Shown: piece after piece, positions 54,629-59,482 of the stretch | How positions within the stretch are numbered: position 1 is the first letter of the stretch | Layout: each line of letters begins with the position of its first letter | Sequence record: NC_024125.2 | From: Escherichia phage vB_EcoM_112 | Reading direction: 5' to 3' (one strand) | DNA: 64,000 nt | Notes under the pieces: model-generated | What the model saw: the letters and a program-made list of their open reading frames with translations, nothing else | What the model was told of the DNA's origin: nothing | The model's database searches: none | Position numbers and translations under genes: made by a program

Positions 54629-55723
54629 ATGGCAATTGTTAAAGAAATAACTGCTGATTTAATTAAAAAGTCCGGTGAGAAAATTTCAGCCGGACAGAGT
54701 ACTAAATCAGAAGTAGGAACTAAAACATACACAGCCCAGTTTCCAACTGGGCGTGCTAGTGGTAATGACACTACAGGGGACTTCCAGGTAACAGATCTAT
54801 ATAAGAATGGATTATTATTTACTGCATACAATATGTCATCTAGGGATTCTGGAAGTCTTAGATCGATGAGATCTAACTACTCTTCTTCATCTTCGAGTAT
54901 TTTACGTACAGCCAGAAACACTATCAGTAATACAGTATCAAAACTATCAAATGGATTAATATCAAATAATAATTCAGGAACAATAAGTAAAGCTCCTATC
55001 GCAAACATTCTTTTACCGAGATCTAAATCTGATGTTGATACATCATCACATAGATTTAATGATGTTCAAGAAAGCCTTATCAGTAGAGGCGGAGGTACTG
55101 CTACTGGAGTGCTAAGTAATATTGCTTCAACCGCAGTATTTGGGGCACTGGAAAGTATAACACAAGGTATAATGGCTGATAATAATGAACAGATTTATAC
55201 GACAGCCAGAAGTATGTATGGTGGTGCTGAAAATAGAACTAAAGTGTTTACTTGGGATTTGACTCCACGTTCAACAGAAGATTTAATGGCTATTATTAAT
55301 ATCTATCAATATTTTAACTATTTTTCTTATGGTGAAACTGGTAAATCTCAATATGCTGCTGAAATAAAGGGGTATTTAGATGATTGGTATCGTTCTACGT
55401 TAATTGAACCTTTATCTCCGGAAGACGCAGCTAAAAATAAAACACTATTTGAGAAAATGACATCGAGTTTAACTAACGTTCTAGTAGTTTCAAACCCGAC
55501 AGTTTGGATGGTGAAAAACTTTGGTGCAACATCTAAGTTTGATGGAAAAACGGAAATATTTGGTCCATGCCAAATACAGAGCATTAGATTTGATAAAACA
55601 CCTAATGGTAACTTTAACGGATTAGCTATTGCTCCAAACCTCCCTAGTACATTTACTCTCGAGATTACTATGAGAGAAATTATCACGTTAAACCGTGCTT
55701 CTTTATATGCGGGGACTTTTTAA
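54629..55723 (+). CDS. 48: baseplate-tail tube junction protein gp48
   Basis: 364 aa. Confidence 0.9.
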   Translation: MAIVKEITADLIKKSGEKISAGQSTKSEVGTKTYTAQFPTGRASGNDTTGDFQVTDLYKNGLLFTAYNMSSRDSGSLRSMRSNYSSSSSSILRTARNTISNTVSKLSNGLISNNNSGTISKAPIANILLPRSKSDVDTSSHRFNDVQESLISRGGGTATGVLSNIASTAVFGALESITQGIMADNNEQIYTTARSMYGGAENRTKVFTWDLTPRSTEDLMAIINIYQYFNYFSYGETGKSQYAAEIKGYLDDWYRSTLIEPLSPEDAAKNKTLFEKMTSSLTNVLVVSNPTVWMVKNFGATSKFDGKTEIFGPCQIQSIRFDKTPNGNFNGLAIAPNLPSTFTLEITMREIITLNRASLYAGTF

Positions 55724-56646
55724 TGTATTCTTTAGAGGAATTTAATAATCAAGCAATAAACGCAGATTTCCAACGTAATAATATGTTTAGCTGCGTTTTT
55801 GCGACAACTCCATCAACTAAAAGCTCTTCGTTGATAAGTTCAATTAGCAACTTTTCTTATAATAACTTGGGCCTAAATTCAGATTGGTTAGGATTGACTC
55901 AAGGTGATATTAATCAGGGAATTACCACGCTAATTACTGCTGGCACACAAAAACTGATAAGAAAATCAGGGGTTAGTAAATATCTTATTGGTGCCATGAG
56001 TCAACGTACAGTTCAAAGTTTATTAGGCTCATTTACAGTTGGTACATATTTAATTGACTTCTTTAACATGGCATATAACTCATCTGGATTGATGATATAC
56101 TCTGTAAAAATGCCAGAGAATAGATTATCCTATGAAACTGACTGGAACTATAATTCTCCTAATATTCGTATAACTGGGAGAGAATTAGACCCTTTGGTTA
56201 TTTCATTTAGAATGGATTCAGAAGCTTGTAACTATCGTGCAATGCAAGACTGGGTTAACTCCGTTCAAGACCCAGTAACTGGACTGCGTGCTTTGCCACA
56301 GGATGTCGAGGCAGATATTCAGGTTAATCTTCATTCTCGTAATGGATTGCCTCATACTGCGGTGATGTTCACTGGATGCATTCCAATATCAGTGAGCGCT
56401 CCTGAGTTATCATATGATGGAGATAACCAAATAACTACATTTGATGTTACTTTTGCGTATAGAGTGATGCAGGCTGGAGCAGTTGATAGGCAAGCTGCGC
56501 TTGAATGGCTTGAATCTGCTGCTATAAATGGTATTCAAAGCGTTCTCGGAAATAGTGGAGGTGTTACTGAACTATCTAATTCGCTTTCACGACTCAGTAG
56601 ATTAGGTGGAACTGCAGGAAGCATTTCAAATATTAGTATACTATGA
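55723..56646 (+). CDS. 54: baseplate-tail tube initiator gp54
   Basis: 307 aa. Confidence 0.9.
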   Translation: MYSLEEFNNQAINADFQRNNMFSCVFATTPSTKSSSLISSISNFSYNNLGLNSDWLGLTQGDINQGITTLITAGTQKLIRKSGVSKYLIGAMSQRTVQSLLGSFTVGTYLIDFFNMAYNSSGLMIYSVKMPENRLSYETDWNYNSPNIRITGRELDPLVISFRMDSEACNYRAMQDWVNSVQDPVTGLRALPQDVEADIQVNLHSRNGLPHTAVMFTGCIPISVSAPELSYDGDNQITTFDVTFAYRVMQAGAVDRQAALEWLESAAINGIQSVLGNSGGVTELSNSLSRLSRLGGTAGSISNISIL

Positions 56647-56694
56647 CAGGGATTGTCAATTCGCAGAGTAAAATATTAGGAGCAATATAACAAC

Positions 56695-56712
56695 GGGGAC
56701 CTTTCGGTCCCC
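56695..56712. terminator. bidirectional hairpin between gene 54 (plus) and minus-strand ORF
   Basis: ggggacc-tttc-ggtcccc followed by atattttta. Confidence 0.6.
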
Positions 56713-56718
56713 ATATTT

Positions 56719-57009
56719 TTATTTGCGGAATGAAATGAAAGCAGAAACTGAAGCAACTAAACTGTCTTCAATATAAACTTCAATTTTTACCGGAGCTTCT
56801 GACTCAAATTTACCTGTTACTACACCCTGAAAAATACTTTCAGTCTGTTCTGGCTTTGAAAAATTTTCAGAAGGAAAAATTCCAAACTTTTTATCTGTTC
56901 CGAAAATTTTGATAAATTCATCATAAACTGCTTCATTAAAAGCATTATCAGCAGGAATAACGCCTTCAACTACAAGTTCTTGACCTAAAAAGCGTAAAGA
57001 AGATTTCAT
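56719..57009 (-). CDS. hypothetical protein
   Basis: 96 aa ORF downstream of the alt duplicate. Confidence 0.5.
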   Translation of the reverse strand: MKSSLRFLGQELVVEGVIPADNAFNEAVYDEFIKIFGTDKKFGIFPSENFSKPEQTESIFQGVVTGKFESEAPVKIEVYIEDSLVASVSAFISFRK

Positions 57010-57041
57010 TTTGTGTTCCTCATGTTATGTCAGTAAGACTA

Positions 57042-57427
57042 CTATAACACAACACGAGGGACTTGTAAACTACATTTTGAACTTTTTAGTACGCGTAATA
57101 GGCATGCGTCGATTTTATACTGTTTCATTGTTTGAAGAGCAGTATCAAAAACAGCATTAATGACACCAATTGGATTTCCACCCAAGTTTTTAAGCTTAAC
57201 TAATGATAGTTTCTCATTAACACCTATCATTACGATATGCATCATTTTATCGCCCGGCTTAACGTTTTATTCGTATCACCGCCAGAGGTGTATGTACAAA
57301 ATCTAAATCCAGGAAGCACGCTTTCTTCGCCGGCTTGAATAGCAAAAATTTGTGGTATTTTATGCTTAGGATTTAAGTTAACAACCGGCGCCGAAGCGCC
57401 GTCAAATAATTCTGTAATAAGTTCCAT
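57042..57427 (-). pseudogene. frameshifted partial duplicate of the alt N-terminal region (two ORFs of 61 and 67 aa)
   Basis: 57242..57427 (MELITELFDGASAPVVNLNPKHKIPQIF...) aligns to Alt residues about 2-57; 57042..57245 (MMHIVMIGVNEKLSLVKLKNLGGNPIGVINAVFDTALQTMKQYKIDAC...) to about 64-125. Confidence 0.65.
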
Positions 57428-57430
57428 GAT

Positions 57431-59482
57431 TTATCCTTGAACGAACTTGTAAGGCATGTTTGCAATATCTATGCAAGACGCAATAATTCCAAGAGATGAT
57501 TCTACTTTCTGTTTAACATTTGATGAAACAAATGATGCAAAGTCAACTCTATCTTCTATATCACCTGTCATTGTAACCAATTCACCAGTTTCCATTAAAC
57601 GGTCACCGTCATAAATTACCGATTCGGTGAGTTCTTCTGTGGTCATAACTTCAGCTTGAATAAGCTTGTTGTTAGTTCTAACTGTTCCATCGTTGTAAGA
57701 TGCATCGGTTATTTTATTAACTTTGACCATTAATCCACGTGGCAAAATGACTTCCATTTCATTTGAAGGCGCTAAACTTCCACCGGGTAAAACAACATTG
57801 ACCTTATCAGCCCCAGTAATAACCCATCCAATTCCAACTAAATTATCGCTAGAATTTACAAGTCCTTCATCAGTTTTATCAATAGAAACACTTAAACGCT
57901 TTTCGTCTGGTAAAACACCCACAGATGAATCAGTCATCCAAGTACCAAAAATATTTGGATATAATGATGTTGACACAAAGTTTCTAAAATAAAAAACTCG
58001 ATTTTTTACCATTGCTTCATATATTGAAGGTAACATTCGTTGTGAACGATACAAAGTAATACCTTTTGGTAATCGTTCACCATTTTTAAAGGCTGAATCT
58101 AAATTATCAATGGCTTGTTCTATTTCAGGTGCTGTTAAAATACTTGTACGCTCATCTGGATTATATAATCCCAAAAGAGCATTATTTATGTCTACATATC
58201 CTGAACCTACATATTCACGAATTCCGCGTTTTTGCGCTGGTGTGTATTTAGATGAATCTTTATTTTCGACTATAGGATGTAATGACCATCCAGCGGTAAG
58301 AGCATATCCACGTAATTCTCTTCGAATAATCTTTGTTTTTATTGCATTCCAAGAATTTTGTACTAACTCATTTGCAGCATCTTGGTTTAAATGCGAATGT
58401 CTGTTAATATTTCTTTCAAACCAAGCACCTTTATATTTTTCTAAAGTATCATCGACGATAGAAGCAATAGTTTCTAAAGTTTTTATTGAAGTAATAGATT
58501 CTTTTCGTAATTTTTCTAAAGCTTTATTTTTTATTTCTGCATTAATAATGGATTCTTTATCTTCAGGAATTATAGAAGCTTCTCTGAATGCCATCCCAGC
58601 TGTAACACTGCTAAGAGCATTCTCTAGTGCAAATCCTGAAGTAGAAATTACCGTTAATTCATTAGAATCAGAAATTAAAGGAGCGTCCGCTGGTTTATTT
58701 AATTCTGCCGCTGAAGCCTCAAATTTTTGAAACATCGGTGTTTCAAATCTAGAAGATTCCAATGACTGACTTTGTGCAATTGCTCTACGGGAAATTTTAA
58801 CTTTAACGATTACAGCTTGGTCAGAACGTTTATCATTTTCTTGTGCAATAGATGCTGCAATTGCCTCATTTTTAGTTACTTGAGCTCCAGTATCTTTATT
58901 GATATAAACATCACCGACCTTCGATTCAACTTTAGTAAAGAGCTCGGTACTAATTTCCGGAACCCCTGGAATGTCTTCTAGTGATACATTTTTGCGATGT
59001 ATAAGAATATATGCATACTTTTTATCATAATCCCAGAGTTCCTTAAGAAGGACGTATCTGCCACCTGAACGACTACGGATAAGTCTATCAGCAATAACTT
59101 GAATTTGTCGAGCTTGGCCAGCAGTTTTAGACTTAAGAATACGAAGCATACAAGCATCAATTTTATACTGACGCATTGTTTGCAATGCAACAGTAAAAAC
59201 CGAATTGATATAATTAATTGGGCTTGGACCAAGACCTTTCAATTTAGCAATTGAACCTTTAGCGGTTAATGTAAAAGGAACAATATGCATCATTTTATCG
59301 CCCATCTTTAAATCACGATTAGTATCACCTCCAGATGTATAGGTACATAAACGAAAGCCTGGTTGTTCAATTGCGTCATCAACATGAACTGAAAAAATTT
59401 GCGGTATTTTCTTCTTTGGATTTAAGTTTGTAATCGGAAGAGTAGTATCTTCGTCAAATAATTCTGTAATTAGTTCCATCAT
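57431..59482 (-). CDS. alt: ADP-ribosyltransferase Alt (virion-packaged)
   Basis: 683 aa; C-terminal ART-like R / S-T-S / E elements (LYRSQR, FVSTSLY, EMEVILPRG); late promoter upstream. Confidence 0.9.
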   Translation of the reverse strand: MMELITELFDEDTTLPITNLNPKKKIPQIFSVHVDDAIEQPGFRLCTYTSGGDTNRDLKMGDKMMHIVPFTLTAKGSIAKLKGLGPSPINYINSVFTVALQTMRQYKIDACMLRILKSKTAGQARQIQVIADRLIRSRSGGRYVLLKELWDYDKKYAYILIHRKNVSLEDIPGVPEISTELFTKVESKVGDVYINKDTGAQVTKNEAIAASIAQENDKRSDQAVIVKVKISRRAIAQSQSLESSRFETPMFQKFEASAAELNKPADAPLISDSNELTVISTSGFALENALSSVTAGMAFREASIIPEDKESIINAEIKNKALEKLRKESITSIKTLETIASIVDDTLEKYKGAWFERNINRHSHLNQDAANELVQNSWNAIKTKIIRRELRGYALTAGWSLHPIVENKDSSKYTPAQKRGIREYVGSGYVDINNALLGLYNPDERTSILTAPEIEQAIDNLDSAFKNGERLPKGITLYRSQRMLPSIYEAMVKNRVFYFRNFVSTSLYPNIFGTWMTDSSVGVLPDEKRLSVSIDKTDEGLVNSSDNLVGIGWVITGADKVNVVLPGGSLAPSNEMEVILPRGLMVKVNKITDASYNDGTVRTNNKLIQAEVMTTEELTESVIYDGDRLMETGELVTMTGDIEDRVDFASFVSSNVKQKVESSLGIIASCIDIANMPYKFVQG

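What the first reader, a model, noticed from the sequence alone, without database searches (positions are those of the whole stretch)
57042..57427. Frameshifted tandem duplicate of the Alt N-terminal region next to alt
Immediately downstream of alt (57431..59482) are two short ORFs whose products align in order with Alt residues about 2-57 and about 64-125, split by a frame change at 57242..57245. This is a partial tandem duplication of the Alt N-terminal, non-catalytic region, followed by frameshift or decay. It could be a decaying paralog, a small N-domain-only protein made by itself, or a frameshift-dependent product. The Alt N-terminal region is plausibly the part involved in capsid packaging, so an N-domain-only product could compete with or chaperone Alt.
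Basis: seen in the sequence. Interest (0 to 1): 0.55.

Follow-up and report, generated by a model that had tools for sequence, protein, structure and literature searches.

The report
Decaying remnant of second alt gene
The two small ORFs after alt are the T4 genes alt.-1 and alt.-2, the broken left-over of a second full-length alt gene that most T4 relatives still have; T4 annotators already recorded them as an alt duplication, so the finding is real but ordinary.

Summary
The window is a T4-like phage (Tequatrovirus). ORFs 57242..57427 and 57042..57245 (minus strand) are T4 alt.-1 and alt.-2. They match Alt residues 2-58 (63% identity, E=6e-24) and 64-118 (64%, E=1e-21). This is already known: the T4 RefSeq note calls them an old duplication of the first part of alt, and Nolan et al. 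2006 list them as alt paralogs. T2 and about 80% of sequenced relatives carry a full-length second alt gene (685 aa, with the ADP-ribosyltransferase domain) at this position. The window's form arose in two steps: a roughly 1.7 kb deletion between two 9-bp repeats (CTAAAAAGT), then loss of one A from an A5 run at 57265..57268, 20 nt upstream of the ATGA stop/start overlap. Of 17 truncated copies examined, only 2 keep an intact 128-aa ORF. Thirteen carry the frameshift, 9 a stop at codon 6, and 2 a second frameshift. Changes private to truncated copies are 10 amino-acid-altering to 3 silent, which is the neutral ratio; in full-length copies the ratio is 2 to 12. T4 proteomics found the RNAs but not the proteins. 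Verdict: transcribed pseudogene remnant, of low interest.

The parts
57431..59479 (-). alt, the full-length head-packaged ADP-ribosyltransferase (682 aa). An extra in-frame ATG lies at 59480..59482.
   Evidence: ORF list; Pfam PF03496 E=1.4e-34 at residues 375-615; orthologous to the annotated alt of G8 and T4.
57242..57427 (-). alt.-1 (61 aa): first fragment of the remnant, homologous to Alt residues 2-58. The last 6 codons (TLSRAI K*) are read out of frame.
   Evidence: BLASTP E=6e-24; T4 annotation; phrog_23015 and phrog_802.
57042..57245 (-). alt.-2 (67 aa): second fragment of the remnant, homologous to Alt residues 64-118, followed by a 12-aa non-homologous tail.
   Evidence: BLASTP E=1e-21; T4 annotation; phrog_15247 and phrog_802.
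57265..57268 (-). A4 run: site of the 1-nt deletion (A5 to A4) that splits the 128-codon ORF into alt.-1 and alt.-2.
   Evidence: Alignment with T2, SYGD1 and FL12 (A5) versus the window and T4 (A4); coordinates checked.
57242..57245 (-). ATGA overlap of the alt.-1 stop (TGA) with the alt.-2 start (ATG). It is a consequence of the upstream frameshift, not its site.
   Evidence: Sequence.
57081..57089 (-). CTAAAAAGT: the single remaining copy of the 9-bp direct repeat at the roughly 1.7 kb deletion junction that removed the body of the second alt paralog.
   Evidence: T2 has the repeat at nt 339 and nt 2038 of its second alt gene. 88 of 471 records span this junction; the rest match only from the repeat onward.
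57045..57080 (-). Twelve out-of-frame codons (SKCSLQVPRVVL) that read through the ancestral TAG stop into former intergenic DNA.
   Evidence: In T2 the same DNA reads ...SKKFKM* in another frame; translation.
57041..57069 (-). Early-promoter-like site (G)TTTACA-17-TATAGT, with TG before the second hexamer, upstream of alt.-3 and inside the tail of alt.-2.
   Evidence: Best-scoring promoter-like site in the region, 10 of 12; a promoter is annotated at the same place in phage Lutter; in T4, alt.-3 RNA is early class and alt.-1/-2 RNA is middle class.
56719..57009 (-). alt.-3 (96 aa, DUF5498): an intact neighbouring gene, not part of the duplication.
   Evidence: Pfam PF17602 E=5e-64; detected as protein in T4; T4 mutants with C-terminally extended Alt.-3 escape the CmdTAC defence system (PMC11618068).
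56693..56714 (.). Bidirectional terminator hairpin that ends the alt operon and gene 54.
   Evidence: Terminator scan on both strands; annotated in G8.

Best explanation
alt.-1 and alt.-2 are two fragments of a pseudogene, the remnant of a second full-length alt paralog. Shown steps follow. (1) An old tandem duplication produced two complete alt genes; this state survives in T2 and most Tequatrovirus genomes. (2) In one lineage, recombination between two 9-bp direct repeats (CTAAAAAGT) deleted about 1.7 kb. This removed the ADP-ribosyltransferase domain and shifted the frame at the 3' end, leaving a 128-codon ORF (phages SYGD1 and N2). (3) Loss of one A from an A5 run then split that ORF into alt.-1 and alt.-2 (T4 and this window). 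(4) Further lesions are accumulating. Inferred: the remnant is transcribed passively as part of the alt to alt.-3 transcript. It persists because the deletion is recent and because its 3' end carries the alt.-3 promoter. Any peptides made have no selected function.
For: The locus exists in three states. T2 has alt (697 aa), a second Alt-like gene (685 aa) and alt.-3. SYGD1 has an unsplit 128-aa ORF. T4, G8 and the window have the split form. The alignment shows the A5 to A4 change and the repeat-bounded deletion junction. The T2 second paralog has the ADP-ribosyltransferase domain PF03496 (E=8e-20) and is 41% identical to T2 Alt over its full length. The junction-spanning query found 88 truncated records against 383 full-length-type records. 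Among 17 truncated copies, 2 are intact, 13 have the A4 frameshift, 9 have the stop E6*, and 1 each has an extra single-base deletion at nt 278 or nt 342. tblastn also shows 3-piece matches in 7 records (5 phages), consistent with second frameshifts. Variants private to truncated copies are 9 nonsynonymous plus 1 nonsense against 3 synonymous, which fits the neutral proportion of 0.78 (binomial p=1.0). Variants private to full-length copies are 2 against 12, and shared variants are 1 against 18 (Fisher p=0.0018 and p=1.6e-5). dS between alt and the duplicate is about 1.6, so the duplication is old. In T4, alt.-1 and alt.-2 RNAs are classed as middle and the proteins were not detected, whereas Alt.-3 and many equally small proteins were detected (PMC9697503 Table S2). 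The T4 RefSeq note and Nolan 2006 already call these ORFs a duplication of alt.
Against: In this window both ORFs are intact. alt.-1 has a good ribosome-binding site (AAGGA, 7 nt upstream of the ATG), and the ATGA overlap could couple translation of alt.-2. The alt.-2 ORF is intact in 15 of the 17 copies. The count of private variants is small (13), and the full-length sample is only 9 genomes. Failure to detect a 6-7 kDa protein by shotgun proteomics is weak negative evidence. The 17 copies are not independent lineages, and recombination blurs the history.
Confidence: 0.88

Rival explanations
1. Alt.-1, Alt.-2 or both are functional small proteins. For example, an N-terminal-only Alt fragment might keep the Alt propeptide (MELITE, cut by the prohead protease gp21), enter the prohead, and compete with or assist Alt.
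For: Both ORFs are intact in the window, T4 and G8. Alt.-1 keeps the ITE-6 cleavage motif that is processed in Alt (PMC5694885). alt.-1 has a ribosome-binding site, and the ATGA overlap allows coupled translation. The RNAs are made in T4.
Against: A stop at codon 6 of alt.-1 is present in 9 of 17 truncated copies from viable phages. Further frameshifts occur in alt.-2. Private substitutions fit neutrality at 10 to 3. About 80% of relatives have the full-length gene instead. No protein was detected in T4. The split falls inside one continuous conserved region of Alt, and the Alt.-2 tail is out-of-frame sequence.
Confidence: 0.07
2. A programmed -1 ribosomal frameshift, or transcriptional slippage at the A run, restores a 128-aa fused N-terminal Alt-like protein.
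For: The frame change lies in a homopolymer run, and a -1 shift there would restore the ancestral reading exactly (NKNVKPGDK).
Against: AAUAAAACG has no X XXY YYZ heptamer, and four A residues are too few for efficient polymerase slippage (established knowledge). The 96 nt around and downstream of the site fold no better than shuffled sequence (z=-0.45). Relatives have the plain in-frame A5, so the A4 is a mutation and not a conserved recoding signal. Many A4 copies also carry the upstream stop E6*.
Confidence: 0.02
3. The DNA is kept for a non-coding role: it supplies the promoter and leader for alt.-3, or spacing within the alt operon.
For: The best promoter-like site of the region (GTTTACA-17-TATAGT) lies at 57041..57069 within the tail of alt.-2. 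A promoter is annotated there in phage Lutter. alt.-3 is early class whereas alt.-1 and alt.-2 are middle class. The deletion endpoint lies just upstream of this site.
Against: This explains only about the last 45 nt. The 340 nt upstream have no such feature, and they accumulate indels and substitutions of every kind. The idea is compatible with the pseudogene explanation rather than a replacement for it.
Confidence: 0.03

Closest known systems
Phage T4 genes alt.-1 and alt.-2 (NP_049810, NP_049809; UniProt P39495, P39494)
   Same: Same position between alt and alt.-3, same lengths (61 and 67 aa), same A4 frameshift, same ATGA overlap and same deletion junction. The fused query is 97.7% identical to T4 at protein level.
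   Different: Only a few substitutions: for example N17 here against T17 in T4, and a TLSRAIK tail here against TLNQAIK in T4.
Second full-length Alt-like ADP-ribosyltransferase of T2-type phages (T2 YP_010073850; RB32 'alt.-2' ABI95018; Sf24 gp47)
   Same: It sits at the orthologous locus. Its first 116 codons are 93-94% identical to the window's remnant, and it has the same upstream and downstream flanks.
   Different: It is 685 aa long with an ADP-ribosyltransferase domain (PF03496) and a conserved C-terminus. It is in frame (A5) and under purifying selection, with 2 nonsynonymous to 12 synonymous private variants. The window lacks about 1.7 kb of it.
Alt of phage T4 (head-packaged NAD:protein ADP-ribosyltransferase)
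   Same: The N-terminal 118 residues are homologous (63-64% identity), including the MELITE propeptide with the gp21 cleavage site.
   Different: The remnant has no catalytic domain and no C-terminal propeptide, is split into two frames, and shows dS of about 1.6 against alt.
Alt duplications in other T4-like phages (44RR ORF187c and ORF188c, RB49 ORF183c; Nolan et al. 2006)
   Same: Tandem paralogs of alt lie next to alt, some full-length and some partial (PMC1524935). Two alt-like places per genome were also seen in Aeromonas phage L9-6 and phage VR5.
   Different: These are different genera. I did not test here whether they are independent events.

Membership tests
T4 alt.-1 / alt.-2 orthologs | Located between alt and alt.-3 on the same strand | tested here: met
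   The ORF order alt, alt.-1, alt.-2, alt.-3, then gene 54 on the opposite strand matches T4 and G8.
T4 alt.-1 / alt.-2 orthologs | Near-identity to the T4 proteins, with the same frameshift and the same deletion junction | tested here: met
   97.7% identity to T4 in tblastn, found as two pieces. The A4 run and the CTAAAAAGT junction are identical.
Alt-like ADP-ribosyltransferases (Pfam PF03496, phrog_802) | ADP-ribosyltransferase catalytic domain | tested here: not met
   Neither ORF has any Pfam hit. Together they cover only profile positions 2-120 of 674 in phrog_802. The catalytic domain lies at residues 375-615 of Alt.
Alt-like ADP-ribosyltransferases (Pfam PF03496, phrog_802) | Homology to the Alt N-terminal region | tested here: met
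   BLASTP E=6e-24 and E=1e-21.
Pseudogene or gene remnant | Derived from a longer intact gene at the orthologous position in relatives | tested here: met
   T2-type phages have a 685-aa gene there. The deletion junction was mapped to 9-bp repeats.
Pseudogene or gene remnant | Disabling lesions that vary among close relatives | tested here: met
   Among 17 copies: A5 to A4 in 13, E6* in 9, and extra single-base deletions in IME537 and F25. Only 2 copies are intact.
Pseudogene or gene remnant | Relaxed selective constraint | tested here: met
   Private variants are 10 nonsynonymous or nonsense to 3 synonymous in truncated copies and 2 to 12 in full-length copies (Fisher p=0.0018). The truncated ratio fits the neutral proportion. 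The counts are small.
Pseudogene or gene remnant | No stable protein product | not testable with these tools
   Literature only: in T4 the RNAs were detected and the proteins were not (PMC9697503 Table S2).
Programmed -1 ribosomal frameshift sites | Slippery heptamer X XXY YYZ at the frame junction | tested here: not met
   The sequence is GAAUAAAACGUU, which contains no such heptamer.
Programmed -1 ribosomal frameshift sites | Stable downstream RNA structure | tested here: not met
   Minimum free energy -14.3 kcal/mol, z=-0.45 against shuffled sequences.
Programmed -1 ribosomal frameshift sites | Frameshift arrangement conserved among relatives | tested here: not met
   Full-length and unsplit relatives are simply in frame with A5.
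T4 internal head proteins carrying a capsid-targeting propeptide | N-terminal propeptide ending in a gp21 site (I/L-x-E) | tested here: met
   Alt.-1 begins MELITE followed by LFDG, identical to the Alt propeptide cleaved at ITE-6. This is a sequence match only.
T4 internal head proteins carrying a capsid-targeting propeptide | Presence in proheads or virions | not testable with these tools
   No virion proteomics entry for Alt.-1 or Alt.-2 was found.

The most novel reading that the evidence does not exclude
In phages where alt.-1 is intact (this window, T4, G8), the 61-aa product might still be made. Through the retained Alt propeptide (MELITE, cut by gp21) it might be loaded into proheads as a small injected peptide, or it might titrate the sites that recruit Alt. 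That would be an early stage of a gene fragment being put to a new use.
Probability: 0.05. Interest if true: 0.4.

Novelty: already known. Interest (0 to 1): 0.15.

Why it matters
It matters little for new biology. The similarity of alt.-1 and alt.-2 to alt is already recorded in the T4 reference annotation and in Nolan et al. 2006. This analysis adds a corrected history that is useful for annotation. The pair is not a partial duplication, and the full-length RB32 gene is not an 'insertion in alt.-2' as its record says. The pair is a deletion-plus-frameshift remnant of a complete second alt gene that most T2-type phages still carry. Two practical points follow. Many genome records label these fragments 'ADP-ribosyltransferase', which misleads because no catalytic domain is present. 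The intact second Alt paralog of T2-type phages, probably a second head-packaged ADP-ribosyltransferase, is the uncharacterised gene worth studying, and T4 is a natural knockout of it.

Tried and rejected
1. Counting all polymorphisms among the 17 truncated copies gave 21 synonymous to 11 nonsynonymous or nonsense changes, a pN/pS of about 0.15 that looks like purifying selection. I rejected this as misleading, because most of those variants are shared with full-length copies through ancestral polymorphism or recombination. I replaced it with the private-variant contrast.
2. An IMG/VR scan for more copies returned only 10 loci, too few to add much.
3. Programmed frameshifting was considered and rejected: there is no slippery heptamer, no downstream structure and no conservation.
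4. Literature searches for alt.-1 and alt.-2 found only Nolan 2006 in the held library. The T4 genome review by Miller et al. 2003 is not held. A search for Alt-like paralogs in Tequatrovirus found nothing relevant.
5. No solved structure covers the Alt N-terminal region; only the catalytic domain matches CdtA-type toxins weakly.
6. I did not run structure prediction or the large protein-database searches, because the comparative evidence already settled the question.

Full report
Identity of the region. The window is a T4-like phage of the genus Tequatrovirus. An 851-nt query around the finding is 99.9% identical to Escherichia phage vB_EcoM_G8, and it matches 502 phage records at 90% identity or more. 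On the minus strand the gene order is gene 30 (DNA ligase), alt.1, alt, two short ORFs, then a 96-aa ORF. Genes 54 and 48 follow on the plus strand. In the T4 reference genome the same three ORFs are named alt.-1, alt.-2 and alt.-3.

Check of the observation.
- Alt.-1 (57242..57427, 61 aa) aligns with Alt residues 2-58 at 63% identity, E=6e-24.
- Alt.-2 (57042..57245, 67 aa) aligns with Alt residues 64-118 at 64% identity, E=1e-21.
- The PHROG profile for Alt-like ADP-ribosyltransferases matches the two ORFs at profile positions 2-59 and 64-120 of 674.
- Neither ORF has a Pfam domain. Alt has the ADP-ribosyltransferase domain PF03496 at residues 375-615.
- The nucleotide alignment with the 5' end of alt covers about 335 nt. 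Identity over the codon alignment is 66%.

Two details of the finding need correction.
- Homology stops at Alt residue 118, not 125.
- The frame change is not at 57242..57245. That position is only an ATGA stop/start overlap.

What relatives show. A tblastn search with the two products joined found 1,170 phage records. In most Tequatrovirus genomes the best match is a single in-frame piece covering residues 1-116 at 93-94% identity, and it lies inside a gene annotated as an Alt-like ADP-ribosyltransferase. Phage T2 has alt (697 aa), then a second full-length Alt-like gene (685 aa), then alt.-3. The second T2 gene carries the ADP-ribosyltransferase domain (E=8e-20). It is 41% identical to T2 Alt over its full length, and it shares the MELITE N-terminus and a conserved C-terminus. 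Phages SYGD1 and N2 instead have one unsplit 128-codon ORF at this place. T4, G8 and the window have the split pair.

The two mutations. Aligning these states shows both changes exactly.
- In T2 the sequence CTAAAAAGT occurs at nt 339 and at nt 2038 of the second alt gene. Truncated genomes keep a single copy, at window 57081..57089, with the 5' flank of the first repeat and the 3' flank of the second. This is a deletion of about 1.7 kb between short direct repeats.
- The deletion is out of frame relative to the old C-terminus. T2 reads ...SKKFKM-stop there. The truncated form reads through that stop for 12 more codons (SKCSLQVPRVVL) to a TAG in former intergenic DNA.
- T2, SYGD1 and FL12 have AATAAAAACG. 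The window and T4 have AATAAAACG. One A was lost from an A5 run, at window 57265..57268. This splits the 128-codon ORF.
- alt.-1 then runs 6 codons out of frame to a TGA. That TGA happens to overlap the conserved ATG ATG, which encodes Met63-Met64 of Alt and is used as the alt.-2 start.

Frequencies. An 81-nt query spanning the deletion junction matched 471 records. In 88 of them one place covers at least 80% of the query, which marks the truncated state. In all but one of the remaining records sampled, the match starts exactly at the repeat, which marks the full-length state. The window's form is therefore the minority, derived state. All truncated copies examined share one junction, which suggests a single deletion event spread by descent and recombination.

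Evidence for decay. I extracted 17 truncated copies and 9 full-length copies.
- Only SYGD1 and N2 have an intact 128-codon ORF.
- Thirteen copies carry the A4 frameshift.
- Nine carry GAA to TAA at codon 6 (E6*), which abolishes alt.-1. These are FL12, IME537, pSe_SNUABM_01, JEP6, Lutter, ACG-C40, ELT1, fPS-90 and slur03. Annotators of several of these genomes call only alt.-2.
- IME537 has a further single-base deletion in a T run.
- F25 has a further single-base deletion in the A run at the junction.
- Three-piece tblastn matches in PD112, 235Ecol030PP and CE1 suggest the same kind of extra lesion.
- E6* and A4 occur in all four combinations, which implies recombination or recurrent slippage.

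Test of selection. A simple count of all polymorphisms among truncated copies looked like purifying selection, at 21 synonymous to 11 other changes. Most of those variants are shared with full-length copies, so the count is uninformative. Sorting variants by where they occur gives a clear contrast.
- Private to truncated copies: 9 nonsynonymous plus 1 nonsense against 3 synonymous.
- Private to full-length copies: 2 against 12.
- Shared: 1 against 18.

The truncated-only ratio fits the neutral proportion of 0.78 (binomial p=1.0). It differs from the full-length-only ratio (Fisher p=0.0018) and from the full-length plus shared ratio (p=1.6e-5). The counts are small and the lineages are not independent, but the direction is unambiguous. 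Between alt and the duplicate, dS is about 1.6 and dN is 0.31. The duplication is therefore old and evolved under constraint, while the truncation is recent.

Expression. The time-resolved T4 transcriptome and proteome study (PMC9697503, Table S2) classes alt.-1 and alt.-2 RNAs as middle. It marks both proteins NA, meaning not detected. Alt.-3 is early at both the RNA and the protein level, and many proteins of similar size were detected. The strongest promoter-like site in the region, (G)TTTACA-17-TATAGT, lies at 57041..57069 inside the tail of alt.-2 and just upstream of alt.-3. A promoter is annotated at the same position in phage Lutter. This fits the different expression class of alt.-3. 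It also gives a reason why the 3' edge of the remnant is kept.

Rival readings. I considered three.
- Functional small proteins. The ORFs are intact here, alt.-1 has a good ribosome-binding site, and Alt.-1 keeps the MELITE propeptide that gp21 cleaves at ITE-6 in Alt (PMC5694885). Against this stand the common stop at codon 6, the neutral substitution pattern, the out-of-frame tails and the lack of detected protein.
- Programmed frameshifting. A -1 shift would restore the ancestral reading. However, there is no slippery heptamer and only four A residues. There is no downstream structure (z=-0.45). Relatives have a plain in-frame A5 rather than a conserved recoding site.
- A non-coding role. 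This explains only the last roughly 45 nt.

What is already known. The T4 RefSeq record says that alt.-1 and alt.-2 together reflect an old duplication of the first part of alt, into which a stop codon and a new start were introduced. Nolan et al. 2006 list T4 alt.-1 and alt.-2 among paralogous duplications of adjacent genes, and they mention a full-length alt duplicate in phage 44RR (PMC1524935). The RB32 record describes its full-length gene as an 'apparent insertion in alt.-2; similar to alt'. The Sf24 record notes a second Alt-like gene distinct from T4 Alt. The core finding is therefore not new. I did not find the direction of change stated in the held literature: full-length first, then deletion between 9-bp repeats, then frameshift and further decay. 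That is a refinement, not a discovery.

Verdict. The feature is a transcribed pseudogene remnant that is already annotated in T4. Interest is low.

Noticed in passing
L003 4001-6058 (phage T2); the orthologous position in the window is 57042..57427: T2-type phages, about 80% of matching Tequatrovirus records, carry a second full-length Alt paralog of 685 aa. It is 41% identical to Alt, has the ADP-ribosyltransferase domain, and keeps the MELITE N-terminus and the conserved C-terminal YDGDHLMETGE. It is probably a second head-packaged ADP-ribosyltransferase. I found no characterisation of it in the held literature.
   Followed up: partly
window 57041..57069 (minus strand): The best promoter-like site of the region, (G)TTTACA-17-TATAGT with TG before the second hexamer, lies inside the out-of-frame tail of alt.-2, 32 nt upstream of the alt.-3 ATG. 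This fits alt.-3 being an early gene in T4 while alt.-1 and alt.-2 RNAs are middle class.
   Followed up: partly
window 56719..57009 (minus strand): alt.-3 (DUF5498, 96 aa) is intact. In T4, mutations that extend its C-terminus let the phage escape the CmdTAC defence system (PMC11618068). Its normal function is unknown.
   Followed up: no
window 55723..56646 (plus strand): Gene 54 (tail tube initiator) encodes 307 aa here and in G8, against 320 aa in T4. The proteins are 97% identical but this one lacks the last roughly 14 residues. There is also a small difference at residues 218-221 (GCIP here, MHS in T4).
   Followed up: no
window 59480..59482 (minus strand): alt has an extra in-frame ATG directly upstream of the annotated start (MMELITE...). 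The literature quotes the Alt propeptide as 6 residues in one paper and 7 in another.
   Followed up: no
window 56693..56714: A GC-rich hairpin scores as a terminator on both strands between the converging alt.-3 and gene 54, so it is probably a bidirectional terminator.
   Followed up: no
L005, L006, L019, L020, L022-L024, L026, L027 (nt 16 of the remnant): The codon-6 stop (GAA to TAA) and the A5 to A4 frameshift occur in all four combinations among truncated copies. This points to recombination between closely related phages or to recurrent homopolymer slippage.
   Followed up: partly
phage records listed: Many GenBank records label the alt.-1 and alt.-2 fragments 'ADP-ribosyltransferase' or 'RNA polymerase-ADP-ribosyltransferase Alt', although they contain no catalytic domain.
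   Followed up: yes
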